From the NCBI GenBank assembly GCA_039586495.1, contig JBDHKG010000020.1, positions 1,181 to 65,180 on the forward strand: a stretch of DNA of 64,000 bases, in the 5' to 3' direction. The notes beneath the pieces are model-generated. The model did not search any database and was not told the DNA's origin. It saw only the letters and a program-made list of their open reading frames with translations. This document shows positions 16,429-60,118 of the stretch, piece after piece (position 1 is the first letter of the stretch; each line of letters starts with the position of its first letter). This stretch comes from Gemmatimonadota bacterium (GTDB lineage Bacteria > Gemmatimonadota > Gemmatimonadetes > Palauibacterales > KS3-K002). Both the position numbers and the translations under genes were made by a program.

Positions 16429-16434
16429 CCGGCT

Positions 16435-18240: not shown

Positions 18241-18247
18241 GAGAGCG

Positions 18248-25400: not shown

Positions 25401-25614
25401 TGAGAGGGTGTCCAGCTCGCTCGAGTCGTCCTGGGACGCGCCGACGCAGGCCCAGGAGATCAACCTGCGGCAGGCGGAGGCGATGTTACAGGACGCTCTG
25501 GACGAGTTCAACCAAGTCTTCGCCGAGGACGTGGCCGAGTTCATCGACAAGGTGGAGGCAGTGGGGATCAGCTTCGTAAAGTCTACGGAGCCGCTAGCGA
25601 TGCCGCAGCGCTAG
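22402..25614 (+). CDS. Secreted BNR/Asp-box repeat protein (sortilin/VPS10-like, GH74-like beta-propellers), copy 1.
   Basis: 1070 aa. Signal peptide MLRRLISGGAALLLSAALAAPLHAQ. Repeated S-x-D-x-G-x-(T/S)-W motifs ('SMDAGRNWT', 'TEDGGRTWQ', 'TVDGGRNWT', 'SEDGGYTWR', 'TRDGGATWT'). Confidence 0.85.
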   Translation: MLRRLISGGAALLLSAALAAPLHAQVDPELLAGMRARSIGPAGMSGRIGSVDAVVSNPNIIYVGTATGGVWKSVNGGVSFEPIFDDQPVHAIGAVRVFQASPDIVWVGTGEGNPRNSVSGTGYGVFKSMDAGRNWTHLGLENTERVHRIALHPSNPDIAYVGAMGSMWKPNPERGVFKTEDGGRTWQKILYVDENTGVGDMEMDPTNPNKLIVAMWEYRRWPWFFKSGGPGSGLFLTVDGGRNWTKLTPEDGLPEGDVGRIGLAIAPSNPNIVYALTEASENALYKSEDGGYTWRKIDSEGTIGNRPFYYFDLRVDPQDPNRVYSLYSRVGLSTDGGRSFQVLVRGGVHSDHHAMWINPNDPSHIIDGNDGGVYISRDHGQTWRFVTDLPLAQYYHINVDMETPYNVLGGLQDNGSWRGPSSVWEDGGIRNHHWQRVGGGDGFATLALPSDPKVGYSMSQGGNLRRWNVYSGEFKDIRPAHPDGVELRFNWNAAIAVDPFDPNIVYYGSQFVHKSPDMGETWEVISPDLTTNNPERQKQQESGGLTYDVTGAENFTTIMTIAPSPVAQGVIWVGTDDGRVHVTRDGGATWTSVERNVRGVPANTWVPHIEPSKFDAATAYVVFDNHRRGDFTPYVYVTRDYGRRWSSLVSDDIWGYALVVEQDPVKEDLLFLGTEFGLYSSLNGGQSWMKWTHGFPTASAMALIVHPREHDLVIGTHGRSVYIIDDIRPLRTISAETMAQPIYLFEIPDAIQYQENQSAGEGSPGHGAFRGENRPYGALITFSLNIEGLPRASAQQPQPGGSGQGGPQRFGQARRGPQVTVEISDSDGELIRTLRAPARLGVNRIAWNLRRDEFRRPRAAEEQEEFFRFGRGGPDVLPGSYGVKIKYGDHEATGSVNVLADPRYDITLAEREEKLAAIMYAGALQEVVADAVERIRDTRSEIDDVLERLRRAEEESGDDELLRAGRSLNTALTELEKEFWSPPGSRGQRTPRTDNVLRLIERVSSSLESSWDAPTQAQEINLRQAEAMLQDALDEFNQVFAEDVAEFIDKVEAVGISFVKSTEPLAMPQR

Positions 25615-28700: not shown

Positions 28701-29085
28701 TGAGGAGGGCGCGGAGAAATCGGCGGCGCGCTCCGAGGAAGAAAGCGCGAACAACGAGTTGATTGAGGCGGCCCGCGAGTTGAAGAAGACGCTCAAGGGG
28801 GTGGAGGAGCGGCTCTGGGTTCCGCCCGGCACCAAAGGCATTGTCGCCGAGACCGCGGTCTACTCGCGCATCGGGTACGTCTTGCGCGCCCTGAGCTCCT
28901 CGTGGGATGCGCCGACGCCGGCGCAGCAGACCTACACGCGTCAGGCGGAGGTGCGGCTCGAAGAGGTCCTTGCCGAGTTCAACCGTGTGTTCGCCGAGGA
29001 CGTGGCCGAGTTCCGGAACAAGGTCGAGGCGGCAGGGATCGAGTTCCTCGGGCCACAGGAGCCTCTGCAGATGCCGGAGCGCTAG
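25753..29085 (+). CDS. Secreted BNR/Asp-box repeat protein, copy 2 (tandem paralog of 22402..25614).
   Basis: 1110 aa, collinear with copy 1 over most of its length. It has an extra Glu/Ala-rich insert at about 28190..28290 and a 20-aa internal duplication. Confidence 0.85.
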   Translation: MLRRLISSGAAALLIVALAAPLHAQVDPELLAGMQARSIGPAGMSGRIADVEAVVSNPDIVYVGAATGGVWKSLNGGLTFEPIFDDQPVHAIGDIAIFQASPDIVWVGTGEGNPRNSVSVGNGVYRSLDGGRSWTHLGLDETERIHRIALHPSNPDVAYVGAIGKEWGESPERGLFKTEDGGATWRKILYVNETTGVGDMEMDPTNPNKLIVAMWDYRRWPWFFRSGGPGSGLYLTVDGGRNWKKLTPEDGLPEGDLGRIGLAIAPSNPNIVYALIEAKENALYKSEDGGYTWRRTGARDNIGSRPFYYFDLRVDPQDPNRVYSLWSLVSVSNDGGASFELLMTWDAAHPDHHAMWISPNDPTLIYEGNDGGVYVSRDRGETWRFVSNLPFAQFYHINVTMETPYNVLGGLQDNGSWRGPSVVWENGGIRNHHWEEVGFGDGFATLADPSDPMIGYAMSQEGFLTRWDLRTGERKDIRPAHPEGIELRFNWNAAIAIDPFEPSTVYYGSNWNAAIAIDPFEPSTVYYGSQFVHKSTDRGDTWEIISPDLTTNNPEWQKQAESGGLTLDVTGAENFTTIITIAPSPVEQAVIWVGTDDGRVQVTRDGGATWESVERNIRGVPANTWVPHIEPSKFDAATAFVVFDNHRRSDWTPYVYVTHDYGRRWRSLATDDLWGYALVIEQDPVKADLLFLGTEFGLYVSVDGGREWLKWTHGVPTASAMALIVHPREHDLVIGTHGRAAYILDDIRPLRSLTAETLAQPIHLFDIADAQQYMVKQTGASRFPGHAEFRGANRPYGALITYSLHIEGLPHPDEEVERQRKAAQREAGAPEEEAAGETAAAEREGPPDRGPQVTIEISDAEGEVIRSFKGPAKLGVNRVAWDLRRDSFRRPRGDEEMSFFERGGPEVLPGIFGVRIKYGEHEATGPVTVLPDPRYDILGADREAKFAGIMHAGALREVAAEAIDRIQDTRADIDVVLDKAKQGEEGAEKSAARSEEESANNELIEAARELKKTLKGVEERLWVPPGTKGIVAETAVYSRIGYVLRALSSSWDAPTPAQQTYTRQAEVRLEEVLAEFNRVFAEDVAEFRNKVEAAGIEFLGPQEPLQMPER
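27219..27339 (+). repeat. Perfect 60-bp tandem duplication (2 units) inside BNR copy 2. It is in-frame and duplicates NWNAAIAIDPFEPSTVYYGS.
   Basis: Unit 27220..27279 is identical to 27280..27339. Copy 1 has this motif once (FNWNAAIAVDPFDPNIVYYGSQFVHKS). Confidence 0.9.
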
Positions 29086-30116: not shown

Positions 30117-30971
30117 ATGAGCGAAAGCGATGAGATCCGTGAGGCGGTCCGCCGGCGCTATGCTGCCGCGGCGCGCCGAGCGCTGGAGGTCAAGCCGGCG
30201 AGCTGTTGTCCACCGAGTTGCTGTGGTGCGGAAGCTGGGGATACGACAGCTGACTCCGGGAGCGCGGAAAAAGGTGTGATCTCACGCGAACTCTACGCTG
30301 TCGGTGAAACGTCGCAGCTTCCGGAGGCCGCGGTGCTCGCCTCGCTCGGTTGCGGCAACCCCGCGGCCTTAGCGGAGCTGAGACCGGGCGAGGTCGTGCT
30401 CGACCTCGGTTCGGGCGGTGGCATCGATGTACTGCTTTCGGCGCGCCGCGTAGGGCCCACGGGCGTGGCGTACGGCGTGGACATGACCGACGAGATGCTG
30501 GACCTGGCGCGCCGTAACCAGAGGGAGGCCGGGGTCAGCAACGCCGAGTTCCTCAGAGGTACGATCGAGGATGTTCCGCTCCCTGACGAGAGCGTCGACG
30601 TGGTCATCTCCAACTGCGTGATCAACCTGTCCACGGACAAGGATCGAGTGCTACGGGAGGCGTTTCGGGTCCTGCGAGCTGGCGGCCGGTTTGCCGTTTC
30701 CGATGTGGTGTTTCAGGGGCGGATACCGGAGGAGATCCGCCGGAGCATCGAGGCCTGGAGCGGCTGCCTGGCCGGTGCGCTGCACGAGGACGAGTACCGG
30801 GCCAAGCTGGCCGCGACAGGATTCACTGACATCGAGGTGGAGATCACTCGCAGCTTCGAAGGTCAGGATTTGGAGGAGCTCGCCCGCGAGTTTGGCGTGA
30901 AAGTCGAAGAGAGCTGGCTGGCGGAAGGGCGTTTCTGCTCCGCCTTCATCCGGGCACGGCGTCCAAGCTGA
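30117..30971 (+). CDS. arsM: Arsenite S-adenosylmethionine methyltransferase (ArsM).
   Basis: Conserved Cys pairs ('SCCPPSCCG'), a SAM-binding motif 'VLDLGSGGGID' and a C-terminal Cys ('SGCLAG'). Confidence 0.85.
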   Translation: MSESDEIREAVRRRYAAAARRALEVKPASCCPPSCCGAEAGDTTADSGSAEKGVISRELYAVGETSQLPEAAVLASLGCGNPAALAELRPGEVVLDLGSGGGIDVLLSARRVGPTGVAYGVDMTDEMLDLARRNQREAGVSNAEFLRGTIEDVPLPDESVDVVISNCVINLSTDKDRVLREAFRVLRAGGRFAVSDVVFQGRIPEEIRRSIEAWSGCLAGALHEDEYRAKLAATGFTDIEVEITRSFEGQDLEELAREFGVKVEESWLAEGRFCSAFIRARRPS

Positions 30972-31076
30972 AGTGCGCCGGCGCGCCTTCGTCGTTGCGG
31001 ACGCAAAGGGCAGGCAGTAATCTGCTCGCGCCTGTGTAGCCGAATCTGCTGACATCGGCCTGTCGTAGGTTAGGGC

Positions 31077-33182
31077 ATGAGAGCACCGTCTGGAGTCCGC
31101 GTTCTGACGCTTGGCGCGCACCTGTTTGCGGCGCTTGTAGGGTTGCCCTTTGTCGCCGCGGAGGCCTCAGCGCAGGCACCTCAGGACACGGTCGCGCCTG
31201 ACACGGTCTTCCTCGTCGAGGAGATCACGGTCCGGATCGCCCGGCCTGTCGCCACGGCAGGTGGCGCCAGCGCGCTCACCGCCGCACTGGACTCGTTGAG
31301 GGTGAGGGCGTCGCCGACGCTGGAGGAGGTGCTGCGGCAGGTACCGCTTATCCAGATCCGCGAGAACTCGCGGGGCGAGGCACAGCCGCAGCTGCGGGGC
31401 ATGGAGTCGCGAAATGTGGCGGTGTTGGTGGACGACGTGCCGCTCACGCTGGGCTGGGACAACCGCACTGACCTATCGGTCATCCCGCTGACGGCGGCCC
31501 GTGAACTGACATTGGTGCGAGGCCTCTCCTCGGTGCTCCACGGGCCGAACGCGCTGGGCGGTGTGGTTATCGTCGCTCTGGGAGATGGATCTTCTATCCC
31601 GCGTGATCTCCCGCCGCTGCGACTCTCGGCGGGCGTGGATCACCTGGGTGGCAGCGCCCTGGCCTTGGGGCTGGCGACCGTGTTCCGCGGCGATGCCGGT
31701 GATCTGCTGCTGCGGGCCGGGGGCGGCTACCGAAAACGTTCGGCGACGCCGCTGCCGTCAGGTTCGGATGAGGATCAGCGTGATCTCTTCGAACGCTTCG
31801 AGCAGGTGCCGCCGTCGGACGTCGACGATGAGCGCCTGAACAGCGACTTCGAGCAAGCCAACGGCTACGTCATAGCGCGCTATCAGGACGAAGACGGTCC
31901 TTGGGCGTCGCTCTCCTCCTTCGGTTTCGTGGCGGAGCGAGGTGTGCCGCCGGAACTGCATATCCGGGGACCGCGTCTGTGGCGCTACCCGAGGACGGCG
32001 CGCTGGGTGGCAGCTCTGTCCGCTGGCACCGGCTGGTCGGGTACACCGCTGGGCGAGGGTGATCTGGAGGCGAGCCTGGGGCTCGACTTCGGCGAGACGG
32101 AGATTGACGAGTATTGGACTCCGGCCTACGACTCCATCTCCTCCGGCGAGTCGGGGGACGACCGGACGCTATCGCTCCGGTTGTTGGGCGACCATACGCT
32201 GGGCCCGGGGATCCTGCGCGGCGCCCTCACACTTGTGGAGACGCGCCATGTGGAGGTCATCGACGACGGTGATCCCCGCTCGTACAAGCAGCGTCTCTGG
32301 AGCCTGGGACTCGAGGTTGAGCAGCCGTTCAGCGGGGGCGGACGGGCGTCGCCGCGGGCCAGGGTGAGCGTGGGCGTGAGCGTGGACGGGTCCGACACAC
32401 CGGAGGTGCCGGCGGACATCACACCCCGTGATCGCATCTGGGACTGGGGCGCCCGGGCCGGCGGGACGGTGGCACTGGGGGCGGGAAACGTGTTGCTCAA
32501 CGCCGGGGTGAGTCGCCGCGTTCGCTTCCCAGCGCTGCGGGAGCTCTACTCGGGTGCCCTTGGCAAGTTCGAGCCCAATCACGACCTCGGTCCGGAGGTT
32601 CTCGCCGTTGCGGAGCTGGGCGTCACGGCCCAGGTTGGCAAGCTGGAGGCGCAAGCTGTCGCGTTCCACCAGCGGCTCACCGACGCGATCGTCCGGGTCA
32701 GCATCGGTGACGGCAGGCTGCAACGGCAGAACCGTGACAAGATCCTCAGCACGGGGCTCGAGCTGTTGGCAAGCCACGCGTGGCGTGGGCTGGCACTGGC
32801 CGCGGACTTGACGCTCAAGGACGTCAGCCTGGAGGATCCGACGGTTCCGCAAGAGCAAGAGGAGCCCGAGTATCAGCCGTGGATCGCGGGCAGCCTCGCG
32901 TTGGCTACGCCGCTAGCCTTCGGCGTCTGGGCAAGCGGCCGCGTGCGGCACGTGGGCCGTCGCTACTGCGTGCACCCGGACCAAGAGGAGCAGGAGCGAG
33001 TGGGCGCCGACAGCTGGTTGGATCTCGAGGTCGGCCGTGGCTTCAATCTGCGTGGCGCCTATCCCGGCCGGCGCCTGGAGCTTACCTTCAGCGCGGACAA
33101 CGTGACGGACACGGCAGCCTACGATCAGTGCGGGCTGCCGCAACCGGGCCGGCTGCTACGCTTGCAGGTGCGTATTTTCTAG
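31077..33182 (+). CDS. TonB-dependent outer-membrane receptor.
   Basis: Signal peptide, a plug domain ('NVAVLVDDVPLTLGWDNRTDLSVIPL', 'LTLVRGLSSVLHGPNALGGVVIV'), a long barrel and a C-terminal '...LQVRIF' with terminal Phe. Confidence 0.85.
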   Translation: MRAPSGVRVLTLGAHLFAALVGLPFVAAEASAQAPQDTVAPDTVFLVEEITVRIARPVATAGGASALTAALDSLRVRASPTLEEVLRQVPLIQIRENSRGEAQPQLRGMESRNVAVLVDDVPLTLGWDNRTDLSVIPLTAARELTLVRGLSSVLHGPNALGGVVIVALGDGSSIPRDLPPLRLSAGVDHLGGSALALGLATVFRGDAGDLLLRAGGGYRKRSATPLPSGSDEDQRDLFERFEQVPPSDVDDERLNSDFEQANGYVIARYQDEDGPWASLSSFGFVAERGVPPELHIRGPRLWRYPRTARWVAALSAGTGWSGTPLGEGDLEASLGLDFGETEIDEYWTPAYDSISSGESGDDRTLSLRLLGDHTLGPGILRGALTLVETRHVEVIDDGDPRSYKQRLWSLGLEVEQPFSGGGRASPRARVSVGVSVDGSDTPEVPADITPRDRIWDWGARAGGTVALGAGNVLLNAGVSRRVRFPALRELYSGALGKFEPNHDLGPEVLAVAELGVTAQVGKLEAQAVAFHQRLTDAIVRVSIGDGRLQRQNRDKILSTGLELLASHAWRGLALAADLTLKDVSLEDPTVPQEQEEPEYQPWIAGSLALATPLAFGVWASGRVRHVGRRYCVHPDQEEQERVGADSWLDLEVGRGFNLRGAYPGRRLELTFSADNVTDTAAYDQCGLPQPGRLLRLQVRIF

Positions 33183-34651: not shown

Positions 34652-34679
34652 AAACAGAAAGGGCCGGCCGCGCCGGCCC
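34652..34679 (-). terminator. Bidirectional intrinsic terminator between convergent genes. It is a better fit for the minus-strand blaR-like gene.
   Basis: Perfect 8-bp stem gggccggc/gccggccc with loop cgc. On the minus strand it is followed by tttctgttta. Confidence 0.5.
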
Positions 34680-34723
34680 CTGTTGCACAGCCACTGACTC
34701 GAGTCGGGGATCACCGCCGCTTG

Positions 34724-36016
34724 CTAAGACTTGGGCTTAACGGCGAAGGTGATCGGGATCGCCATCCAGACCGGCACGACTTCCTCACGGTTACGGGCGG
34801 GTATGAACTCCCACTCGCGGGCCACCACCAGCCCCGCCGCGTCCAGCGCCTCGTTCCCAGAGCTCTCCTTCAGTTTCACGTTGGCGACGTTGCCGTCGCT
34901 ATCGATGAAAACCCAGACGACCATGGTGCCGCCGATGCCGGCACCTTTGAGGTCCTCCGGGTAGTGCCGCTCGACTGCGCGCTTCGCCTCCTCGAGGTCC
35001 TTGAACTCAGGCCTTGCCGTGTACGGCGTGAACACCGGCTCGGCGCCGATCTCTTGGGCAACGCTCTCCGCCGGCGGCAGGTCAACACCGCTCTCCGTCG
35101 ACTCCTGCGGCGCGCGCAGCTGACAGGCCGCGGCGAGCAGCGTGCCCGCAATCAGGGATGCGGCTATCGCACTCTCGACGCGCCGATGTGGTCTCCTGGC
35201 AGTCATGTTCCGAACTCTCCTTTCCAGAAACGTCTTGTGCTCCGCAAACGCCGTCGGAAGCGTCGCGAGCCCCGAGCCGTGGCGGGCTACCTCTAGCAGG
35301 AGCGTGCCATACAGCTGCGGCTGCGCACCCTTGAGCAGCACCCGCCCGTCACAGTCCAACTCCACCGCCAGACGCAGGCGGCGAAACTGCCACCACAGCG
35401 GAAGGTTCCACGGCATGAGGACAAGCGCCGCCAACGCGAAGCCGAGTAAACGATGATCTCCTGCGCGCACGTGCTCCTCCTCGTGCGTCAGCACTAATCG
35501 CCTAAGTCCCTCCTCCAGCTCCAGTGCCCAGCGGGGGATCACGATCCGGCCGCGGACTAGCCCCAGTACCGCCGGACCCAGCTGTCGTGAGATGAAGACC
35601 GTGCTGCCCGCGAGCACCTCCGCGGACCAGTCTCGGCTCTCGCTCCGGAGGCACCTGTAGGAGCGGAGGTAGAAGAGCAGCAAGGTGAGGGAGGCGAGCA
35701 GCCAGAGGGCAATGAGCACAGAGTCGATCTGCGCCAACAGCGGCCGCGTGGTCGGCCCCGCGCTCAAAGGCCCAGCAGCGACGGTAAGACCTTCCACGGC
35801 CGCCTGGAGCGCGGGTGGCAGCGACTCTCGCGAGAACCTTTGCCACCCAGGGAGGACATACGTGGAGAGGGGCAGGGCAAGAGACCCGATCATAGCGCCC
35901 AGCCAGACCCAGCGGACGGGCCGGCCGTAGAGGCGAAACGCGTGCTCAAACGCCAGGGCCGCACCCGCGAGCAGGAGGCCGACGACAAGGCAGTAAGCGA
36001 TCCAGGCCGCGATCAT
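34724..36016 (-). CDS. BlaR1-like M56 metallopeptidase signal transducer with a C-terminal TonB-C domain.
   Basis: HExxH site 'LTHEEEHVRAGDH' within an M56 TM region. The C-terminus 'GTMVVWVFIDSDGNVANVKLKESSGNEALDAAGLVVAREWEFIPARNREEVVPVWMAIPITF' is TonB C-terminal-like. It overlaps the upstream blaI by 4 nt. Confidence 0.8.
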   Translation of the reverse strand: MIAAWIAYCLVVGLLLAGAALAFEHAFRLYGRPVRWVWLGAMIGSLALPLSTYVLPGWQRFSRESLPPALQAAVEGLTVAAGPLSAGPTTRPLLAQIDSVLIALWLLASLTLLLFYLRSYRCLRSESRDWSAEVLAGSTVFISRQLGPAVLGLVRGRIVIPRWALELEEGLRRLVLTHEEEHVRAGDHRLLGFALAALVLMPWNLPLWWQFRRLRLAVELDCDGRVLLKGAQPQLYGTLLLEVARHGSGLATLPTAFAEHKTFLERRVRNMTARRPHRRVESAIAASLIAGTLLAAACQLRAPQESTESGVDLPPAESVAQEIGAEPVFTPYTARPEFKDLEEAKRAVERHYPEDLKGAGIGGTMVVWVFIDSDGNVANVKLKESSGNEALDAAGLVVAREWEFIPARNREEVVPVWMAIPITFAVKPKS

Positions 36017-36390
36017 GCTTCGCCCTCCTCTCCCAGCCGCTGGTTCAGAAGCTCACGCAGGCGGCGCAGTTCCGCCTCCGAGATGGCTTCTTCGGCGACG
36101 AGCTGGGTCAGTAACGCCTCCGGCGACCCGCTGAAGATCTTGCTGACCACGTGCCGCAGAGCGGTGGCGCGGGCCTCGTCACGGCCCACCAGCGGGAAGT
36201 AGCGGTGAGCGCGACCCTCTGGCTCGCGGCGCACGTGGCCCTTGGCCTCGAGGGTGCGCAGGATGGTGAGGACCGTGGTGTAAGCCAGGTCCGGCTCAAG
36301 GCGTTCCTGCACCTGCCGCACCGTGGCCGAGCCCAGGCCCCAGAGCACGGCCATAATGTCGAGCTCGCGATCGGTGAACGAGACGGACAT
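36013..36390 (-). CDS. BlaI/MecI/CopY-family transcriptional repressor.
   Basis: 125 aa. 'LDIMAVLWGLGSATVRQVQERL...YTTVLTILRTLEAKGHVRRE...RYFPLV' is a penicillinase-repressor wHTH. Confidence 0.85.
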   Translation of the reverse strand: MSVSFTDRELDIMAVLWGLGSATVRQVQERLEPDLAYTTVLTILRTLEAKGHVRREPEGRAHRYFPLVGRDEARATALRHVVSKIFSGSPEALLTQLVAEEAISEAELRRLRELLNQRLGEEGEA

Positions 36391-36409
36391 GTTGCCCCCC
36401 TGGCTATTT

Positions 36410-36471
36410 ACTATGCTTATAGTAGATGATAGGGCAGGGGGGCCGCTTTGTCAACTATTCATGTAGTAGAT
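36410..36471 (-). promoter_or_regulatory. blaI promoter (TTGACA-17-TATCAT on the minus strand) overlapped by two 18-bp operator-like boxes.
   Basis: Minus-strand -35 is TTGACA (plus coordinates 36449..36454). The 17-nt spacer precedes the -10 TATCAT (36426..36431). Box 1 ACTATGCTTATAGTAGAT (36410..36427) overlaps the -10. Box 2 ACTATTCATGTAGTAGAT (36454..36471) overlaps the -35. Fourteen of 18 positions are identical between the boxes, and each has dyad character (ACTAT..TAGTA). The region is flanked by CCCCCCTG...CAGGGGGG. Confidence 0.55.
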
Positions 36472-36491: not shown

Positions 36492-37736
36492 CTACTCGTA
36501 GCGCAGCGCCTCCACCGGATCGACCTTCGCCGCCCGGCGCGCCGGTAGGATGCCGGCGGCTAGGCCGATCGCGATGAGCACACCGGCGCAGACGAGGGCG
36601 ATGGGCAGGGAGAGCTTGGGGTTGGCGATGTAGACCATGGCGCCGTCGTCGGCGGGCAGGCTGTCCACCCCGAGGATCACAGCGATCGAGAAGACGAGCC
36701 CGATGGTGCCGCCGATCAGCGTGAGCGCTACCGACTCGAAGATGAACTGGCCCATGATGTGGCGCCTGCGCGCGCCGATCGACCGCTTGATGCCGATCTC
36801 CTTCGTCCGCTCCTTCACGACCACGTACATGATGTTGGCGACGCCGACGCCGGCGACCAGCAGCGTGAACAGGCCCACCAGGCCGAGGAAGATCTCGATC
36901 CCATAGCCGATGGCGTTCACCTCTTTCTGGTCCTCGATGAAGTCCCACATGGGGAGGGCGCGCTCGTCTTCCGGGTCGAACTTGTACTTGGCCCCCAGCA
37001 CCCGGAACAGCTCCCCTCTAACGGACTCGGCGCGCATAACGTCCCGCGGCCTGAGCAGCAGGTGGCTCACGTAGCGCTGGCCGTAGATGTTCCTGAAGGT
37101 TGAGGCGGGGATGATCGCCCGGTCGGCGTCGGGCCCATTGTTCATGCTGTCCTGGAACTTCTTCTGCATGACGCCGATGACCGTGAACGGCAGGCCGTCC
37201 AACCTCACGGTCCTGCCCACGGGGTCTTCCTCACCGAACAGCTCCTCGGCGATCTCGTTGCCCAGGAACAGAACGCGCCGTCGCTCGTCCAGGTCGCGCT
37301 GGTTGATGAAGCGGCTGCCTGCGCGCGGGAACATCCGCCGCATCTCCTCGAAGGCGGGGTGGACGCCCTCCATGAAAGTAGTCGTTTTGTTGTCGCCAGC
37401 CTCCAGGGTGGTGCCCCAGCGGCCGTAAGAAGGGCTGACGAGGTCGATCTCGGGGATGGCGCGGCTGATGAGATCGAGGTCGTCTTCGATCAAGCGGACC
37501 TGGCGGCCCTTCGGCAGGCCCTCGTAGGGCATGCTGGTCACGCCGCCGTAGACCATGAAGATGCGCTCGCCCGCGTTGACTAGACCGCGGAGGATGGCGA
37601 GGCGGAGACCTTCGCCGAAGCCGAGGAGCAGGACGACCGCGATCGTGCCCCAGGTGATCGCGAACATGGTGAGCAAGACGCGGGTCTTCTGCGCCTTCAG
37701 GTCACCGATGAACTCGCCGAGTAGTATTCTCCACAT
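36492..37736 (-). CDS. ABC-transporter permease, FtsX/MacB-like, permease-only with no ATPase domain.
   Basis: 414 aa. N-terminal TM, a large periplasmic domain and three C-terminal TMs ('GVANIMYVVVKERTKEIGIKRSIGARRRHIMGQFIFES'). Confidence 0.85.
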   Translation of the reverse strand: MWRILLGEFIGDLKAQKTRVLLTMFAITWGTIAVVLLLGFGEGLRLAILRGLVNAGERIFMVYGGVTSMPYEGLPKGRQVRLIEDDLDLISRAIPEIDLVSPSYGRWGTTLEAGDNKTTTFMEGVHPAFEEMRRMFPRAGSRFINQRDLDERRRVLFLGNEIAEELFGEEDPVGRTVRLDGLPFTVIGVMQKKFQDSMNNGPDADRAIIPASTFRNIYGQRYVSHLLLRPRDVMRAESVRGELFRVLGAKYKFDPEDERALPMWDFIEDQKEVNAIGYGIEIFLGLVGLFTLLVAGVGVANIMYVVVKERTKEIGIKRSIGARRRHIMGQFIFESVALTLIGGTIGLVFSIAVILGVDSLPADDGAMVYIANPKLSLPIALVCAGVLIAIGLAAGILPARRAAKVDPVEALRYE

Positions 37737-37739
37737 GGC

Positions 37740-38972
37740 TCAGTACCGCAGGCACTCCACGGGGTCCAGGTTCGCCGCCTTGCGGGCGGGGAAGTATCCG
37801 GCGAGAAGCGCGACCCCGGTCAGCAGGACGATCGTGACGGTCGCGACGACCGGCGAGAGCGTGGGCCGACCGACGAACTCCTGCATCGGCAGGTTGGCTC
37901 CGAGTCTGATGATCGCCAGGGAGATGACGAAGCCGAGGGCGGCGCCGCTGCCGACGACGACGAAGGCTTGGCCGAGGAACTGGAGCAGGATGTCGCGCTT
38001 GCGGGCGCCGACGGAGCGTCGGATGCCGATCTCACGGGTGCGTTCCTTGACGACGATGTACATGATGTTGGCCACGCCGATACCGCCGACGGTCAGCGTG
38101 AAGGCGCCGACGATCCCGAGAAAGATGTTCATGCCGAGGAAGATGGCGTTGGCCATCTGATCGTATTCATGGGTGTCCCACTCCATCAGGGCATCGTCGT
38201 CGCTCGGGTCGTAGCGGTACTTGCGGCCCAGCACCTCGTTGATGCGCCGCTCCACGCCCCGGGTCACCTCGGGGGTGCTGGTGCGGTAGACGATGTTGGC
38301 CAGGTAGCGCTGGCCGAAGATCGCCCTGTGCGTGCTTGCCGGGATGAAGACGCGGTCGCGGTCGCGCGAGTTGTAGGAGGAATTCTGCTGCTTCTCCTTG
38401 AGCACGCCGATGACGGTGAACGGCACGTCGCCGACGAACACCTGCTTACCGACCGGGTTCTCGTCCTCGAATAGGAGATTGGTCAGCTCGTTGCCTAGGA
38501 AGGCCACGCGGCGCCGCTCGTCCATGTCCGCCTGGTTGATGAAGCGGCCGCCCCAGTCGGGGATCACGTTGCGCATGTCGCCGAAGACCGGGTAGACGCC
38601 GGTCACGTTGGGCCGCGCGCTGTTCCGCCCGCGCCGCACCGCAACGCCCCAGCGGCTGTATTCCGGGCTGATCTGGAGGATGTCGGGGATCTCGCGCTGC
38701 AGCAGACGGACATCCTCCTCTTGCAGCCGGATGAAGCGCCCTTCCGGGAAGCCCTCGTAGGTCTTGGTCGTTCGGTTGCCGAAGACGATGACGATCCGCT
38801 CGCCGATACCGTGCATCCGCTTGCGGGTCTGCCTCTCCAGACCGACGCCGAAGGCCAGCAGCACGACCACGGCGACGGTGCCCCAGGTGATCCCCATGAT
38901 GGTGAGCACCGTGCGCAGCCGCTGCGTGCGGATGTCGTTGAAGAAGTCCGTGAAGCTGCCGAAGATCCGCAT
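37740..38972 (-). CDS. ABC-transporter permease, FtsX/MacB-like, permease-only, paralog of 36492..37736.
   Basis: 410 aa with the same architecture ('GVANIMYIVVKERTREIGIRRSVGARKRDILLQFLGQA'). Confidence 0.85.
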   Translation of the reverse strand: MRIFGSFTDFFNDIRTQRLRTVLTIMGITWGTVAVVVLLAFGVGLERQTRKRMHGIGERIVIVFGNRTTKTYEGFPEGRFIRLQEEDVRLLQREIPDILQISPEYSRWGVAVRRGRNSARPNVTGVYPVFGDMRNVIPDWGGRFINQADMDERRRVAFLGNELTNLLFEDENPVGKQVFVGDVPFTVIGVLKEKQQNSSYNSRDRDRVFIPASTHRAIFGQRYLANIVYRTSTPEVTRGVERRINEVLGRKYRYDPSDDDALMEWDTHEYDQMANAIFLGMNIFLGIVGAFTLTVGGIGVANIMYIVVKERTREIGIRRSVGARKRDILLQFLGQAFVVVGSGAALGFVISLAIIRLGANLPMQEFVGRPTLSPVVATVTIVLLTGVALLAGYFPARKAANLDPVECLRY

Positions 38973-38980
38973 GGCTTGGC

Positions 38981-40072
38981 CTACTCGATCTCGCGCGGCG
39001 GCGGCTCGACCACCTTCTCGCCCTCTTCCAGGCCGGAGATGACCTCGACGTTGATGGCATCGCTGAGCCCGGTCTCGATGACACGCTCCTCCTGGGTCCC
39101 GTCATCCAGCAGCACGGTCACGCGGGCAGTGTCACTTGAGATTCTGATGAGCCGTTCTGGGATCATCAGGGCATCGTCGCGCCGGTCGATGATGACGTCG
39201 GCCTGGGCTGAGTAGCCTGCCCGCAGGACCACGTCGTCCGTGGGATCGAGGGTGATCTCGACGGGGAAAACCGTGGCGTTGTCCTGGGTTCGTGCCTTGA
39301 GCGAGATCTTGTAGAGCGTGCCGGTCACGCTGGCGTTCGGTAGCGCGCCGATCTTGATCTCTACCGGCATCCCCTCACGCAGGCGTCCCACATCGATCTC
39401 GTCCACGCTGCCGCGGAAGATCAGCGAGCTCATCTCCGCCATCGTGATGAGCACTGTCCCCTCCTGGTACGGGTTGAGCGGCACGACCGGGTCTCCGATC
39501 TCGACGTTCTTCTCCAGGATGAATCCGTCGATGGGCGACTTGATGATGGCGTCGATGTTCTGGTCGGCCATGCGGACACGGCCTTCCTCGAGCAGTGCCA
39601 GCCGTTCCTCCGCCAGCTTCAAGTTGAGTTCCGCTTCGTCGTAGGCGCGCTCCGCGGTCTCGTACTGGTCCTGAGAGATGAGGCCCTGGTCCATCAGGCT
39701 GCGCTGGCGAGCCAGCTCGCGGCGCTGGTTCTCGAGCTCGAGTTGGCGCAGCTCGAGCTGGCGCCGCGTCTCCACCAGTTCGAGAGGCGTCGGCGTCGGC
39801 TTGATCTCCAGCAGCGGGGCGCCGGCCCGGACGAACTCGCCGACTTCGGCGAACTCCTGGCTCACCACGCCGGAGATCTTCGACTTGACGCTGATCTCCA
39901 CCTCGGGCTCGATCTGGCCGACGGCGAGCGCCTTGTCGACGATCTCGCCGCGCTCGACCTCGACGGTCCTGACATCGTTGCCGTTCGAGCCGCCGTTGCG
40001 GACGGCGGCGACCGCTCCAACGCCGACCACGGCGGCGGCGACGCCGAGGACGACCTTAGTCCGTCGCTTCAT
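38981..40072 (-). CDS. Periplasmic adaptor / membrane-fusion protein (HlyD/MacA family).
   Basis: N-terminal TM, a coiled-coil region ('LELRQLELENQRRELARQRSLMDQGLISQDQYETAERAYDEAELNLKLAEERLALLEE'), and beta-barrel/lipoyl segments. Confidence 0.85.
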   Translation of the reverse strand: MKRRTKVVLGVAAAVVGVGAVAAVRNGGSNGNDVRTVEVERGEIVDKALAVGQIEPEVEISVKSKISGVVSQEFAEVGEFVRAGAPLLEIKPTPTPLELVETRRQLELRQLELENQRRELARQRSLMDQGLISQDQYETAERAYDEAELNLKLAEERLALLEEGRVRMADQNIDAIIKSPIDGFILEKNVEIGDPVVPLNPYQEGTVLITMAEMSSLIFRGSVDEIDVGRLREGMPVEIKIGALPNASVTGTLYKISLKARTQDNATVFPVEITLDPTDDVVLRAGYSAQADVIIDRRDDALMIPERLIRISSDTARVTVLLDDGTQEERVIETGLSDAINVEVISGLEEGEKVVEPPPREIE

Positions 40073-40270
40073 CCTGACTGCTCCGTAGAGAAAAGCTGGT
40101 GTGTCTGCTGTCTGTGGGATTCAGGCCAGAACGCGGCTGCCTGTCCCACCTGCCCGGCCCCTTCCCGGGCCCTCCAACCCTTCGGGGCGCGAGAATGGGG
40201 CCTTACATGCGACACTACGGAGGTGGGCCGGCGGGAGGTTTCAGCCTGGCCGCCGGCCGCCGGGACCCGC

Positions 40271-42352
40271 CTACTCGAAGACCTGGCGGGATTCCAGGTG
40301 CGCCTCGATCTCCTCACGGGTCCGCCAGACCGGGCGCAGCTCCTTGCGGGCCACGAGCTCGAGCTGGTCCATGAGGTGCGGCGAGCTGGGCTGGCTGGCG
40401 TTGCCGTAGCCGAGCACCGCCATGGCCTTCACGGGGTCGGAGAACTCGATGGCCGCGACGTAGCTGTCGCCGCCGAAGGCCTGGAAGTGCGCGTCCTCGG
40501 TGGGTTGATACCAGGCGGCTCGGAAGATGCCCAGGTTGTCCCGGCCGCCGTTCCCCGGGAGGTCCAGCCCGCCTCCGCGCAGCCGGTGCACGTCACCATA
40601 AGGCACGTCGAGGGCGCCGTAGGCGGAATCGACTCGCACCGCGGCGGCCTCCAGGGCTGCTGCTGCGGCGGCGGGGTCCGCCAGACCGTCGGGCGTTTCG
40701 AGGGGAGACTCGGGGCTCCAGGCCACCGCGAAGGCTCTGGCGCCGAAGCGGCCCATCAGCCCCTCCAGGAAAGCGATGAAGAGGACGGCGCCGCGACTCT
40801 CCGCGTCGGTCTTCCGGTCCCACCTCTCCAGCACGTCAGCGGCTTGGCGGGCGAGCGCGCCGCCGTGCTCCCGTGTGGCCGCGATCACGTCATCCAGGAT
40901 ACGGTCGGCCAACTCCACACGCGTGGAGTGCTTGTAGGCGACCAGCTCGTCGAACGTGATGGATTCGTCTTCCGACAGCATCCGCGCTGAGCGCTGCGCG
41001 CGGAAGTGCATGAAGCGGGGCGCCATGTAGTCGGGGTAGTCTTCGGGATCGAGCGCGCGGGGGAATGTGGTCGTCCAGGGCGGGTCGTTGGCGTTCTGGA
41101 GCCAGCCGCTCTCCGGGTCGAGCACGCGGGGCAAGTCCTCGTAAGGGTGCGTCTCCGTCCAAAGGGTCGCCGATGTATCACCGGGCGCAACCAACCTCCA
41201 GTCCCATGGCCCGGCCGGCCTCACCGGCGTCAAGCCGCCGAAGAGGTGCATGATGTGGCCGTCGCGGTCGGCGTACATCACGGTGAACATGGCGAGCTGC
41301 ATGCGCTTGAGCGCCGCCTCGAACTCGCCCAGGTTCGCGGCTTGGGCCATCTCCCACCACTGCTCCAACAACCCAGGACGATCGAGGCCCACCATGCGAA
41401 GGGCCAGCGCGGAACCACCGTTCTCGAAGACCACCGGGCCGTGGACGGAACGTTTGACCTGGAGAGGCTCCTCACGGAGCACGCTGTCCGGCCCCTTGAC
41501 CCGCAGGGTGTACTCTTCGGTCTCGAAAGGCTGCACGCCGCCGTCCCAACCGTAGCCGTCCTCCGTGAGGGTGAGCTCATAGAGGTCAGCGCCGTCGAAG
41601 GTGTTGACGGTATGGGTCCAGCCGAGATAGTCGTTGAAGGCGATGGCGAGCGTGGGAATCCCCACCAGGGTCGTGCCGTAGACGTCGATACCCGGGCCGA
41701 CGAGCTGAGCCTCGTAGAACAGAAACAGGTCAGACCAGGGCAGGTGTGGGTTCGCCAGCAGCATGGCGTTGCCGCTGGCCGAGCGGGAGCGTGCAATGGC
41801 CCAGGCGTTGGAGCCGGCGGCCTGCCATGCTCGCGCGATGTGGGCGACCGCGTCCTGGCTGAAGACGAAGGTGAAGAGAACTGCGCGCTGGAAGTGGGCC
41901 AGCACGTCGGTGGCATCCACCGGCAGGACGACCTCGACTTCGTCGTTGATCTCGTCGCTGTGCTCGGCGGCGTACGCGTTGAAGCCTTCCGCGAAGGCAT
42001 CGAGGTTCCGGCGGAATGCGGGTTTCTGGGCCTCGTACCAGCTTCGGGCACGCTCGGGCAGGCCCACGGTGACGAGCCAGCGATCCGAGCCCAGGTAGTC
42101 CTCGCCCCAGTACTCCGCGGCCCGGGCGCGGGCCTGTCCGTACAGCCTGAGGATGAGATCGCCGTGGCTCTGCGCCTGGGCCCAGCCGAAGCCGTAGAAC
42201 AGCTCCTCCTGGCTCCTCCCATAGATGTGCGGGACGCCCCAGGTGTCCCAGAGGATCTCCGTACGCTCCGGCCCGGAGGGCCGGCAGGCGCCCGCCACTA
42301 GAGCGGCAGCAGTCAGTGCTACGGCAAGAGAGCGCCGATTTCTCGAGATCAT
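40271..42352 (-). CDS. Penicillin acylase / Ntn-hydrolase family (penicillin amidase or AHL acylase-like), lipoprotein.
   Basis: The internal start at 42352 gives MISRNRRSLAVALTAAALVAGAC, with GGGAGG upstream. The beta-subunit N-terminal nucleophile context is 'GSNAWAIA'. Confidence 0.85.
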   Translation of the reverse strand: MISRNRRSLAVALTAAALVAGACRPSGPERTEILWDTWGVPHIYGRSQEELFYGFGWAQAQSHGDLILRLYGQARARAAEYWGEDYLGSDRWLVTVGLPERARSWYEAQKPAFRRNLDAFAEGFNAYAAEHSDEINDEVEVVLPVDATDVLAHFQRAVLFTFVFSQDAVAHIARAWQAAGSNAWAIARSRSASGNAMLLANPHLPWSDLFLFYEAQLVGPGIDVYGTTLVGIPTLAIAFNDYLGWTHTVNTFDGADLYELTLTEDGYGWDGGVQPFETEEYTLRVKGPDSVLREEPLQVKRSVHGPVVFENGGSALALRMVGLDRPGLLEQWWEMAQAANLGEFEAALKRMQLAMFTVMYADRDGHIMHLFGGLTPVRPAGPWDWRLVAPGDTSATLWTETHPYEDLPRVLDPESGWLQNANDPPWTTTFPRALDPEDYPDYMAPRFMHFRAQRSARMLSEDESITFDELVAYKHSTRVELADRILDDVIAATREHGGALARQAADVLERWDRKTDAESRGAVLFIAFLEGLMGRFGARAFAVAWSPESPLETPDGLADPAAAAAALEAAAVRVDSAYGALDVPYGDVHRLRGGGLDLPGNGGRDNLGIFRAAWYQPTEDAHFQAFGGDSYVAAIEFSDPVKAMAVLGYGNASQPSSPHLMDQLELVARKELRPVWRTREEIEAHLESRQVFE

Positions 42353-42368
42353 GTTCGCCTCCCGGCGT

Positions 42369-43160
42369 TCAGAGGAGCCCGCGGACATAGCCGCCGTCGA
42401 TCTGGACCGTCGCGCCCGTGATGTAGGCGGCCCGCTCCGAGGCGAGAAAGGCCACCAGGTCGCCGAGCTCCTTGGGGTCGCCCATGCGCCCGGCGGGGAT
42501 GGCGGTCACCAGCTGGGCCGTGATGTCCGTGACGCTCTTTCGCGACTCGGCGGCCCGCTGTTCCAGAAGTTCCGTCACCCGATCGGTCGCCATATAGCCT
42601 GGACAGACCACGTTCACCGTGATCCCCTCCGCGGCGAATTCCTCAGCGATCGTCTTGGCGTAGCCGACGACGCCGGGCCGGGCCGTGTTGGAGAGGATCA
42701 AGCCGGGGATCGGCGACTTCACCGAGACCGAAGTGAGGCAGATGATGCGGCCCCAACGATTCTTGCGCATGTGCGAGATCGCTGCCTGGGCGAGGCGGAT
42801 GGTGCTCAGCAGGTTCAGCTCCAGCGCTTCGGCCCAGGCCTCGGGCGGCGTGTTGATGCTGGTCGTGGCCGGCGGCCCGCCCGCGTTGCAGACCAGGATG
42901 TCGAGCCGCCCGAACTGCTTGATCGTCGCCTCGACGAAGTCACGCGGTCCGTCTTCGGTGGCGAGGTCGGTGGGGTGGGCGAAGATCTCCTGGCCGGAGG
43001 CGCGATGTAGGGCCACACCGGCGTGCTCGAGCCGCTCCTCGTCGCGGGCGCAGATCGCGACACGGGCGCCTTCCCGAGCCAAAGCCCAGGCGATAGCCTT
43101 ACCGAGCCCGCTGCTCGCGCCGCCGACCGCTGCGACTCTTCCCTCGAGTCCCAAGTCCAT
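42369..43160 (-). CDS. SDR-family oxidoreductase.
   Basis: Internal start at 43160 (MDLGLEGRVAAVGGASSGLGKAIA) carries the Rossmann TGxxxGxG-like motif, and an 'NAG' motif is present. The ORF-track start at 43232 looks too long. Confidence 0.8.
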   Translation of the reverse strand: MDLGLEGRVAAVGGASSGLGKAIAWALAREGARVAICARDEERLEHAGVALHRASGQEIFAHPTDLATEDGPRDFVEATIKQFGRLDILVCNAGGPPATTSINTPPEAWAEALELNLLSTIRLAQAAISHMRKNRWGRIICLTSVSVKSPIPGLILSNTARPGVVGYAKTIAEEFAAEGITVNVVCPGYMATDRVTELLEQRAAESRKSVTDITAQLVTAIPAGRMGDPKELGDLVAFLASERAAYITGATVQIDGGYVRGLL

Positions 43161-56958: not shown

Positions 56959-56960
56959 CG

Positions 56961-60112: not shown

Positions 60113-60118
60113 CCTCTG

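What the first reader, a model, noticed from the sequence alone, without database searches (positions are those of the whole stretch)
36410..36471. Textbook BlaI-type regulatory region: TTGACA-17-TATCAT promoter with duplicated 18-bp operators over the -35 and -10
On the minus strand a near-consensus promoter drives blaI-blaR. Two 18-bp boxes (ACTATGCTTATAGTAGAT and ACTATTCATGTAGTAGAT, 14/18 identical, each with ACTAT/TAGTA dyad arms) overlap the -10/TSS and the -35 respectively. This is the classic arrangement for BlaI/MecI autorepression.

The region is AT-rich within a ~68% GC genome and is flanked by CCCCCCTG...CAGGGGGG. Because the upstream permease gene ends only 21 nt away, read-through from the transporter genes could also be gated here.
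Basis: seen in the sequence. Interest (0 to 1): 0.55.

Follow-up and report, generated by a model that had tools for sequence, protein, structure and literature searches.

The report
Self-repressed blaI–blaR promoter, two operators
This short AT-rich stretch is the promoter of a repressor/membrane-protease gene pair in a Gemmatimonadota bacterium, carrying two palindromic repressor-binding sites that recur in nearly identical layout at about 180 related loci; it is a solid but ordinary example of a known regulatory design.

Summary
On the minus strand, TTGACA-17-TATCAT is the only promoter match of at least 11/12 in the 64-kb window. Two related boxes sit on it; they are 15/18 identical, not 14/18.

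Comparison with 80 Gemmatimonadota loci refines each box to an 18-bp palindrome, CTACTA-N6-TAGTAG. The distal copy shares its right arm with the -35 (TAGTTGACA). The proximal copy abuts the -10 and covers the predicted transcription start. Sixty of 80 upstream regions (79 related loci plus the window) carry both sites, usually 44 bp apart.

A metagenome scan seeded only with the DNA cassette found a BlaI gene within 560 nt downstream in 102 of 119 usable loci. The other loci mostly place the cassette before PF00144 serine hydrolases, DUF5916 outer-membrane proteins or an M56 peptidase.

The genes driven here are a 125-aa BlaI-family repressor and an M56 protease. The protease carries a TonB C-terminal domain in place of a penicillin-binding sensor, so the signal is unknown.

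The GC-rich inverted repeat is real and structurally retained in a 97%-identical ortholog, with unproven function. Verdict: a new member of a known kind, of modest interest.

The parts
36452..36469 (-). Distal operator. Minus strand reads CTACTACATGAATAGTTG (11/12 to CTACTA-N6-TAGTAG). Its right arm TAGTTG overlaps the first three bases of the -35.
   Evidence: The same -35-fused site is present in 67 of 80 upstream regions analysed (79 related loci plus the window).
36449..36454 (-). -35 hexamer TTGACA
   Evidence: TAGTTGACA is visible in the unfiltered upstream sequences of most related loci.
36432..36448 (-). 17-nt promoter spacer AAGCGGCCCCCCTGCCC. It contains the 5' arm of the GC-rich inverted repeat (36435-36443).
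   Evidence: A 17-nt spacer is the commonest length in relatives (32 of 36 scorable). The spacer sequence itself is not conserved.
36426..36431 (-). -10 hexamer TATCAT
   Evidence: The hexamer is identical in the 97% ortholog L081. TAnnnT directly abuts the proximal operator in 28 of 36 scorable relatives.
36408..36425 (-). Proximal operator. Minus strand reads CTACTATAAGCATAGTAA (11/12). It starts immediately after the -10 and covers the predicted transcription start near 36419.
   Evidence: A proximal site is present in 68 of 80 upstream regions analysed. The transcription start is inferred from promoter geometry and was not measured.
36394..36402 (-). 3' arm (minus strand CAGGGGGGC) of the GC-rich inverted repeat. 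It overlaps the G-rich putative ribosome-binding site 5-11 nt before the blaI ATG.
   Evidence: An architecture-level equivalent with different sequence exists in L081.
36013..36390 (-). blaI: a 125-aa BlaI/MecI/CopY-family winged-helix repressor with no cysteine
   Evidence: Pfam PF03965, E 2.5e-32, full length. Nearest solved relative is M. tuberculosis BlaI 2G9W, E 2.7e-12. 4331 homologues were found, the named ones Gemmatimonadota.
34724..36016 (-). blaR-like gene: a 430-aa membrane M56 zinc protease (HEEEH) with a C-terminal TonB_C domain. Its start overlaps the blaI stop by 4 nt.
   Evidence: Pfam PF05569, E 1.7e-17, and PF03544, E 2.7e-15; no PF00905 match. TIGR01352 tonB_Cterm, 58.9 bits against a cut-off of 27.1. 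Sequence.
34659..34681 (-). Intrinsic-terminator-like hairpin (10 pairs, 8 of them G-C, then a T-rich tail) 43 nt after the blaR stop. It marks the likely end of the operon.
36492..40072 (-). Upstream co-oriented genes: a membrane-fusion protein (38981-40072) and two MacB-type permeases (37740-38972, 36492-37736). They are context and a possible source of read-through, and are not driven by this promoter.
   Evidence: The synteny is kept only in the closest relatives: L003, L004, L045 and L202.

Best explanation
The segment 36406-36471 is the sigma-70-type promoter of a two-gene operon, blaI then blaR-like, in a Gemmatimonadota genome. Two operators for the operon's own BlaI-family repressor are built into it.

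Each operator is an 18-bp palindrome, CTACTA-N6-TAGTAG. The arm centres lie 12 bp apart, about one helical turn, which fits a winged-helix dimer. The distal operator shares its right arm with the -35 hexamer (TAGTTGACA). The proximal operator begins at the base after the -10 hexamer and covers the predicted start site.

Two dimers (four protomers) bound here would exclude RNA polymerase, so the operon represses itself (inferred). By analogy with BlaR1/BlaI, a signal would activate the cytoplasmic M56 zinc protease. The protease would then cut BlaI in its dimerisation helix; the position aligned with the staphylococcal Asn101-Phe102 bond is Gln96-Leu97 here. Cleavage would release the promoter (inferred).

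The signal is not a beta-lactam acylating a penicillin-binding domain, because that domain is replaced by a periplasmic TonB C-terminal domain. What it senses is unknown.

In this window the promoter controls only blaI-blaR. In related organisms the same cassette also heads PF00144 serine-hydrolase genes and DUF5916 outer-membrane protein genes, which are the likely outputs of such systems.
For: - Shown in the sequence: a unique 11/12 promoter and two related palindromes found nowhere else in the window.
- Gene identities: PF03965 repressor; PF05569 protease with an HEEEH motif plus PF03544 TonB_C; a 4-nt gene overlap; a terminator after blaR.
- Conservation: in 80 upstream regions (79 related loci plus the window), 67 have the -35-fused site, 68 the proximal site and 60 both. 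Start-to-start spacing is 43-45 nt in 44 of those 60.
- Background: in 424 kb of those loci only 10 sites of at least 10/12 lie outside the blaI upstream region, and 9 of them sit at or beside another such promoter (4 full cassettes and a lone proximal site).
- Footprinting against the 97%-identical ortholog L081: operator arms, -35 and -10 are kept, while the spacer, proximal N6 and leader have diverged.
- Reverse test: the DNA-only cassette pattern found 120 metagenome loci, and 102 of the 119 usable ones have BlaI within 560 nt downstream.
- The central N6 is not self-complementary: 16, 15 and 2 of 57 sites pair at the three central position pairs. The distal arm is systematically 'spoiled' to TAGTTG to form the -35. 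Both features fit a protein site on DNA.
- Literature: BlaI-family regulators of C. thermocellum bind inverted repeats of GTCTAT or GACTAT as two pairs (four protomers) in front of their own operons (PMC8457756). The pneumococcal CopY study proposes that a distal operator blocks the -35 and a proximal one occludes RNA polymerase, and says this fits why BlaI has two operators (PMC7253601). BlaR1 cleaves BlaI directly at Asn101-Phe102 (PMC9834060).
- The recognition-helix motif DLAYTTV is shared with M. tuberculosis BlaI.
Against: - No binding, footprint, transcription start or expression data exist for this locus or any Gemmatimonadota homologue that I could find.
- The half-site differs from the experimentally defined TACA/TGTA.
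- The M56 protein is too divergent for a sequence match to any solved structure. It scores 34.5 bits against a 400-bit cut-off for NCBI's BlaR1 model, so proteolytic signalling rests on family-level homology.
- The site-counting criteria (at least 10/12, then regular expressions) partly build in the invariance reported. The unfiltered list is the unbiased view.
- About a quarter of related loci lack one or both sites directly upstream of blaI. In at least three of these (L037, L056, L076) the cassette sits further upstream, before another gene.
Confidence: 0.8

Rival explanations
1. The palindromes and the GC-rich inverted repeat act mainly at the RNA level. In transcripts reading through from the upstream permease genes they would fold into a compound hairpin. 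That hairpin would mask the blaI ribosome-binding site, or stabilise or attenuate the upstream message. On this view they are not repressor operators.
For: - The read-through RNA (36491 to 36380) folds at -37.3 kcal/mol, z -2.6, with the 9-bp GC helix enclosing the proximal palindrome and covering the G-rich pre-ATG stretch.
- The 97% ortholog L081 keeps the same architecture with different arm sequences: -36.8 kcal/mol, z -3.5.
- Across 176 cassettes, the spacer pairs with the leader slightly better than a shuffled spacer does. Mean z is -0.50 +/- 0.10, and 12.5% of loci have z below -2.
- The effect is stronger where a co-oriented ORF ends within 120 nt upstream: mean z -1.09 against -0.35, one-sided p 0.024.
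- No terminator is predicted between the permease gene and blaI.
Against: - The operator arms are conserved as sequence, not as pairing, and the distal arm is consistently imperfect (TAGTTG) so that it forms a -35.
- The distal palindrome and the 5' GC arm lie upstream of the predicted start, so they are absent from this promoter's own transcript.
- Perfect 9-nt inverted repeats with loops up to 40 nt are common in this window: 35 observed against about 24 expected.
- Close relatives L001, L002 and L004 show no such pairing.
- Permease linkage exists only in the nearest clade, whereas the cassette is phylum-wide.

At best this is an added layer in some lineages, not an alternative to the operators.
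Confidence: 0.12
2. The boxes are operators, but for a regulator encoded elsewhere in the genome rather than the adjacent BlaI. A paralogous BlaI or an unrelated dimeric factor would be the candidate, so the locus would not be autoregulated.
For: - The same consensus heads genes other than blaI in related loci: PF00144, DUF5916 and an M56 gene placed first.
- The BlaI family is very large in this phylum: 4331 hits, and at least 539 genomic stretches.
- Cross-talk between paralogues sharing one operator consensus therefore cannot be excluded.
Against: - The cassette and a BlaI gene co-occur in 102 of 119 loci found from DNA alone. In several exceptions blaI is the next gene or sits just upstream.
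- Only one BlaI gene lies in the window.
- Autoregulation is the documented rule for the family (PMC8457756).
Confidence: 0.06
3. BlaI bound at the two operators also acts as a roadblock that gates read-through from the MFP-MacB-MacB genes into blaI-blaR.
For: - There are 20 nt between the permease stop and the distal box, with no predicted terminator there.
- The same tight junction occurs in L003, L004, L045 and L081.
Against: - There are no transcript data.
- The arrangement is confined to the closest relatives (3 of 80 genome loci).
- No operator lies upstream of the MFP gene.
- Roadblocking is not established for this repressor family, to my knowledge.
Confidence: 0.15

Closest known systems
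Staphylococcus aureus bla/mec operators bound by BlaI/MecI (PDB 1XSD, 1SAX, 2D45)
   Same: - The repressor belongs to the same Pfam family (PF03965).
- Two dyad operators overlap the promoter elements.
- A partner M56 membrane protease is present. In S. aureus that protease inactivates the repressor by cleavage at Asn101-Phe102 (PMC9834060).
- The aligned position here is a conserved Gln96-Leu97.
   Different: - The half-site is CTACTA/TAGTAG with a 6-bp centre, not TACA/TGTA.
- Gene order is blaI then blaR, with no divergent resistance gene.
- The sensor domain is TonB_C, not a penicillin-binding transpeptidase fold.
- Sequence similarity is weak: E 1e-10 to MecI, and 36-52 bits against cut-offs of 180-250 for NCBI's BlaI/MecI models.
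Clostridium thermocellum BlaI_0696 and BlaI_1845 (DAP-seq and EMSA, PMC8457756)
   Same: - They are autoregulated BlaI-family repressors.
- Their targets carry two pairs of inverted repeats (four protomers) upstream of their own blaI-blaR operon.
- Their half-sites GTCTAT and GACTAT share a CTA core with CTACTA.
- Their regulons are small.
   Different: - The phylum is different.
- The repeat spacing is 5 nt rather than 6.
- Fusion of the sites to the -35 and -10 hexamers was not described there.
- Binding is experimentally shown there and only predicted here.
Mycobacterium tuberculosis BlaI (Rv1846c, PDB 2G9W) with sensor-less BlaR (Rv1845c)
   Same: - It is the closest solved structure by sequence (E 2.7e-12).
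- The recognition-helix motif is nearly identical: DLAYTTV(M/L).
- Gene order is blaI then blaR.
- The BlaR partner lacks the beta-lactam sensor domain.
   Different: - The mycobacterial BlaR has no TonB_C domain.
- I could not retrieve the published mycobacterial operator sequence to compare half-sites.
CopY/CopR cop-box operators (PMC7253601)
   Same: - The repressor family is the same.
- There are two operators. The authors propose the distal one blocks the -35 and the proximal one occludes RNA polymerase.
   Different: - CopY is released by copper binding at C-terminal CXC motifs. The protein here has no cysteine at all.
- It scores 60.5 bits against a 122-bit cut-off for the CopY_TcrY model.
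- The cop box is RNYKACANNTGTMRNY.
M56-TonB_C 'BlaR-like' proteins, such as Bacteroides thetaiotaomicron TonB1/TonB10; architecture survey in the CenIR paper (PMC13492132)
   Same: - The domain architecture is the same. It is the second most common among about 15,000 M56 proteins.
- About 96% of those proteins are encoded within five genes of a BlaI homologue.
- None has a known signal.
   Different: Those reports do not describe operators or regulons. Here a conserved operator consensus and candidate regulon members are derived for the Gemmatimonadota branch.

Membership tests
BlaI/MecI/CopY transcriptional repressors (Pfam PF03965) | N-terminal winged-helix Penicillinase_R domain, full length | tested here: met
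   PF03965 at E 2.5e-32. Residues 6-117 match profile positions 2-115 of 115, at 112 bits against a cut-off of 22.6.
BlaI/MecI/CopY transcriptional repressors (Pfam PF03965) | Encoded next to an M56 (BlaR1-type) membrane metalloprotease | tested here: met
   blaR-like (34724-36016) overlaps the blaI stop by 4 nt. PF05569 at E 1.7e-17. 73 of 80 related genome loci also contain a homologue of the window's M56 protein.
BlaI/MecI/CopY transcriptional repressors (Pfam PF03965) | Binds dyad-symmetric operators in its own promoter (autorepression) | not testable with these tools
   Only comparative support is available: conserved palindromes on the promoter, and cassette-to-BlaI linkage in 102 of 119 loci.
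BlaI/MecI subgroup (protease-inactivated) | Cleavable bond in the dimerisation helix (Asn101-Phe102 in S. aureus) | tested here: inconclusive
   The aligned residues are Gln96-Leu97 within the conserved LLTQLV motif. T95 and L97 are at least 90% conserved and V98 is invariant in 29 sequences. Cleavage was not tested.
CopY/TcrY copper-responsive subgroup | C-terminal CXC...CXC metal-binding motif | tested here: not met
   The 125-aa sequence contains no cysteine. TIGR02698 scores 60.5 bits against a cut-off of 121.95.
Canonical BlaR1/MecR1 beta-lactam sensor-transducers | M56 gluzincin protease with an HEXXH motif | tested here: met
   HEEEH followed by D five residues later, and ELDCD (EXXXD), are present in the sequence. 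PF05569 scores 64 bits against a cut-off of 31.
Canonical BlaR1/MecR1 beta-lactam sensor-transducers | Extracellular penicillin-binding (transpeptidase-fold, PF00905) sensor domain | tested here: not met
   There is no PF00905 match. The C-terminus is TonB_C (PF03544, E 2.7e-15). NF000326 blaR1_generic scores 34.5 bits against a cut-off of 400. No PDB sequence match was found.
TACA/TGTA operator class (S. aureus bla/mec, cop box) | TACANNTGTA core in the operator | tested here: not met
   Neither box contains TACANNTGTA. The conserved arms across relatives are CTACTA/TAGTAG, separated by 6 variable bases.
Sigma-70-type promoter | -35 and -10 hexamers at 16-18 nt spacing, conserved among relatives | tested here: met
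   An 11/12 match with a 17-nt spacer, unique in the window. TTGACA and TAnnnT are conserved in relatives. Promoter activity itself was not tested.

The most novel reading that the evidence does not exclude
The conserved cassette (CTACTA-N6-TAGTTGACA, 17 nt, TAnnnT, CTACTA-N6-TAGTAG) may be the common cis-element of a phylum-wide Gemmatimonadota network. In that network, sensor-variable M56 proteases would control secreted PF00144 serine hydrolases and DUF5916 outer-membrane proteins. The TonB_C type would perhaps report on an outer-membrane TonB-dependent receptor.

In lineages where blaI follows other genes, such as this window, the promoter's own spacer may double as an anti-Shine-Dalgarno. 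BlaI would then be translated only from its autoregulated transcript and not from read-through.
Probability: 0.15. Interest if true: 0.55.

Novelty: new member of a known kind. Interest (0 to 1): 0.3.

Why it matters
BlaR-like M56 proteases with a TonB C-terminal domain are reported as the second most common architecture of this sensor family, and none has a known signal or output (PMC13492132, PMC10350073).

A sharply defined, conserved operator makes the regulons of these systems computable in Gemmatimonadota, a poorly studied and mostly uncultured phylum. It already points to serine hydrolases of the beta-lactamase fold and to DUF5916 outer-membrane proteins as outputs.

For this window the practical gain is annotation:
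- a confident promoter,
- two predicted repressor sites,
- operon boundaries.

It does not change how this regulator family is understood.

Tried and rejected
- Further copies in the window. I searched for the box (up to 3 mismatches) and the refined palindrome (at least 9/12). Nothing turned up beyond the two sites except four weak 9/12 matches; I did not check whether those lie in genes, and I discounted them.
- An operator upstream of the MFP gene, which would place the efflux genes in the regulon. None is present in the window or in L202.
- A second BlaI gene in the window. None was found.
- The published M. tuberculosis BlaI operator, wanted for a half-site comparison. The paper is not held and the text searches were unproductive.
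- Literature on Gemmatimonadota BlaI or M56-TonB systems. Nothing specific was found.
- A PDB sequence match for the M56-TonB_C protein. There were no hits.
- tRNA and Rfam scans of the window. Nothing was found, so no known RNA element explains the region.
- The adjacent TonB-dependent receptor as a general partner of the TonB_C sensor. It is linked only in the closest relatives (2 of 80 genome loci, plus L202), so it is synteny and not evidence of function.
- Chance. I rejected it for the promoter and boxes on the statistics. I could not reject it for the GC inverted repeat taken alone.

Full report
**What is in the sequence**

Read on the minus strand, the 101-nt gap between a permease gene (stop codon at 36492-36494) and the next ATG (36390) is:

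GGCGTGTCCCGGCCCTGTTT-AT-CTACTACATGAATAGTTGACA-AAGCGGCCCCCCTGCCC-TATCAT-CTACTATAAGCATAGTAA-ATAGCCAGGGGGGCAAC-ATG

- The consensus scan reports TTGACA, 17 nt, TATCAT as an 11/12 match.
- My own scan shows it is the only match of at least 11/12 on either strand of the 64-kb window. Markov shuffles give 0.017.
- The degenerate box with up to three mismatches occurs nowhere else in the window: 0.12 expected, and none of 100 shuffles reached the observed three matches.
- GC is 43.5% across the boxes against 66% for the window.
- The inverted repeat GCCCCCCTG/CAGGGGGGC is real. It brackets only the -10 and the proximal box.

**The genes**

- The ORF starting at 36390 encodes a 125-aa protein that matches the Penicillinase_R family end to end (PF03965, E 2.5e-32).
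- The next ORF overlaps it by 4 nt. It encodes a 430-aa protein with a BlaR1-type M56 peptidase domain (PF05569, E 1.7e-17; motif HEEEH) and a C-terminal TonB_C domain (PF03544, E 2.7e-15). It has no transpeptidase-type sensor domain.
- A 10-pair GC-rich hairpin with a T-rich tail follows this gene. The promoter therefore drives a two-gene operon.
- Upstream, in the same orientation, lie a membrane-fusion protein, two MacB-type permeases and a penicillin-amidase homologue.
- Named homologues of the repressor are all Gemmatimonadota.

**Test by conservation**

I aligned 29 homologues and fetched 80 genomic loci whose BlaI is 57-79% identical. The unfiltered upstream sequences show the same design again and again:

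CTACTA-N6-TAGTTGACA, about 17 nt, TAnnnT, CTACTA-N6-TAGTAG, then a short leader and the start codon.

- I scored 80 upstream regions, 79 related loci plus the window. Of these, 67 have the site fused to the -35, 68 the proximal site and 60 both. Start-to-start spacing is 43-45 nt in 44 of the 60, with a mode of 44 as in the window.
- The -10 abuts the proximal palindrome with no gap in 28 of 36 scorable cases, and a 17-nt spacer is the rule.
- In the 424 kb of fetched DNA, only 10 sites of at least 10/12 lie outside the blaI upstream region. Nine of those sit at or beside another such promoter, placed before a gene that precedes blaI or after blaR.
- The 97%-identical ortholog L081 gives a footprint. 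The distal operator, the -35, the -10 and the proximal arms are retained. The spacer (10 of 17 positions), the proximal operator's central bases and the leader have changed.

The units become 36452-36469 and 36408-36425, each matching the palindrome at 11 of 12 arm positions.

One caveat applies. My counting thresholds and regular expressions fix some positions, so the near-invariance is partly built in. The raw listing is the unbiased evidence.

**Reverse test**

I scanned the metagenome collection with the DNA cassette alone, CTACTA-N6-TAGTTGACA-N20-27-CTACTA-N6-TAGTAG.

A profile built from the BlaI alignment finds a BlaI gene within 560 nt downstream in 102 of the 119 loci with enough sequence. 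The 17 exceptions are informative:

- Seven place the cassette before secreted PF00144 'beta-lactamase family' serine hydrolases. In four of those, blaI and an M56 gene follow in the same operon.
- Three place a second cassette, after blaI-blaR, before a DUF5916 outer-membrane protein gene.
- One puts the M56 gene first.
- The remaining six are not informative. Three are small ORFs with no Pfam match, and three (L128, L134, L135) are short or truncated ORFs that I did not scan.

The cassette is thus tied to BlaI, and in other organisms it also marks plausible output genes. In this window no further copy exists, and none lies upstream of the efflux genes.

**How it most likely works**

Shown here:
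- a unique, conserved sigma-70-type promoter;
- two conserved palindromes welded to its -35 and -10;
- a BlaI-family gene and an M56 protease gene downstream.

Inferred:
- A BlaI dimer sits on each palindrome, whose arm centres are 12 bp apart. Four protomers then block the -35 and the start site, so the operon represses itself.
- The protease relieves repression by cutting BlaI.

The inference rests on three bodies of published work.
- C. thermocellum BlaI proteins bind GTCTAT or GACTAT inverted repeats as two pairs before their own operons (PMC8457756).
- The pneumococcal CopY study proposes that the distal operator blocks the -35 and the proximal one occludes RNA polymerase, and says this fits why BlaI has two operators (PMC7253601).
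- S. aureus BlaR1 cleaves BlaI directly at Asn101-Phe102 (PMC9834060). The aligned residues here are Gln96-Leu97, inside a conserved LLTQLV motif.

The closest solved relative is M. tuberculosis BlaI (2G9W), which shares the recognition-helix motif DLAYTTV.

Two features favour a DNA-protein site over an RNA hairpin. The central six bases are not self-complementary. The distal arm is always TAGTTG rather than TAGTAG.

**What it is not**

- It is not a canonical beta-lactam sensor. The penicillin-binding domain is absent, and NCBI's BlaR1, BlaI, MecI and CopY equivalog models all score far below their cut-offs.
- It is not CopY-like, because the repressor has no cysteine.
- The operator lacks TACANNTGTA.

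M56-TonB_C is a recognised but uncharacterised architecture. It is the second most common among about 15,000 M56 proteins, and about 96% of those proteins are encoded near a BlaI homologue (PMC13492132). B. thetaiotaomicron TonB1 and TonB10 are examples without a known role (PMC10350073).

**The GC-rich inverted repeat and read-through**

No terminator is predicted between the permease gene and blaI, so read-through is possible.

- A read-through RNA would fold at -37.3 kcal/mol (z -2.6). The 9-bp GC helix would pair the promoter spacer with the G-rich stretch before the ATG. A transcript starting at the predicted start lacks the 5' arm.
- L081 keeps this architecture with different sequences, at z -3.5.
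- Over 176 cassettes, spacer-leader pairing slightly exceeds that of a shuffled spacer: mean z -0.50 +/- 0.10, with 12.5% of loci below -2.
- The excess is larger where a co-oriented ORF ends close upstream: -1.09 against -0.35, p 0.024, n 22 against 111.

Against this, perfect 9-nt inverted repeats are common in this GC-rich window (35 against about 24 expected). Relatives L001, L002 and L004 show no such pairing. I treat a translational-insulation role as an unproven add-on with low confidence.

The permease linkage is confined to the nearest clade: L003, L004, L045 and L202.

**Verdict**

This is a BlaI-type autoregulated promoter with two operators, and its conservation is unusually clear.

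It is a new member of a known kind. It has a phylum-specific half-site and a non-beta-lactam sensor. It is useful for annotation and regulon prediction in Gemmatimonadota, but it would not surprise a specialist.

Noticed in passing
window 36394-36402 and 36435-36443; L081 445-500: The promoter spacer is complementary to the G-rich pre-ATG leader. A 97%-identical ortholog keeps the pairing with different sequences. Across 176 cassettes there is a weak general excess of such pairing, larger where a co-oriented gene ends just upstream. The spacer may act as an anti-Shine-Dalgarno in read-through transcripts.
   Followed up: partly
L115, L137, L167, L172, L173, L176, L197 (metagenome loci): The same promoter-operator cassette directly precedes secreted PF00144 'beta-lactamase family' serine hydrolases. 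In L115, L172, L173 and L197 these are followed by blaI and an M56 gene. They are candidate outputs of this regulator family.
   Followed up: partly
L139, L150, L152; also L008 4340-4401 and L029 4435-4496: A second complete cassette lies after blaI-blaR. In L139, L150 and L152 it heads a DUF5916/CBM9-like outer-membrane protein gene.
   Followed up: partly
L146 about 4135-4570: The cassette precedes a small cysteine-rich ORF (begins MRKLKLELDELEVESFSV and ends in a Cys/Pro/Gly-rich tail) with no Pfam match.
   Followed up: no
window 36492-40072: An MFP gene plus two MacB_PCD/FtsX permease genes has no ABC ATPase gene in the cluster. The permeases match only the permease half of MacB and the ADOP family. 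The same ATPase-less trio occurs in L202.
   Followed up: partly
window 40271-42388: A penicillin-amidase (PF01804, E 3e-134) gene sits between the SDR gene and the MFP gene. It is absent from the otherwise syntenic locus L202, so it looks like a lineage-specific insertion or loss.
   Followed up: partly
window 40209-40219 (minus strand); L202 about 6169-6179: An 11-nt motif, CGTAGTGTCGC, is shared upstream of the MFP gene in the window and in the 79%-related locus. It is preceded in both by GAAAC at 16-18 nt, so it may be a promoter for an alternative sigma factor.
   Followed up: no
window 30117-33182 (plus strand): Methyltransferase and TonB-dependent receptor genes converge on the M56-TonB_C gene. 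The neighbourhood is conserved in L003, L045 and L202 but not in more distant relatives.
   Followed up: partly
window 22402-25614 and 25753-29085; 12095-22351: Two tandem paralogous genes of about 1100 aa encode Sortilin/BNR-repeat proteins. They are preceded by a run of TPR-repeat protein genes and a 664-aa ORF with no Pfam match.
   Followed up: no
window 55202-62640: Two clusters pair multihaem c-type cytochromes (MtrC/MtrF-like, NapC/NirT-like) with cytochrome b genes, on opposite strands.
   Followed up: no
window 2374-5568: A 1064-aa tricorn-protease-like protein with PD40 repeats, tricorn C1 and PDZ domains, and peptidase S41.
   Followed up: no
L063 3001-3351 and 5891-6241: Two BlaI paralogues (about 60% identical to the query) lie 2.9 kb apart. 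The first has only the -35-fused operator, and the second has no recognisable cassette upstream.
   Followed up: partly
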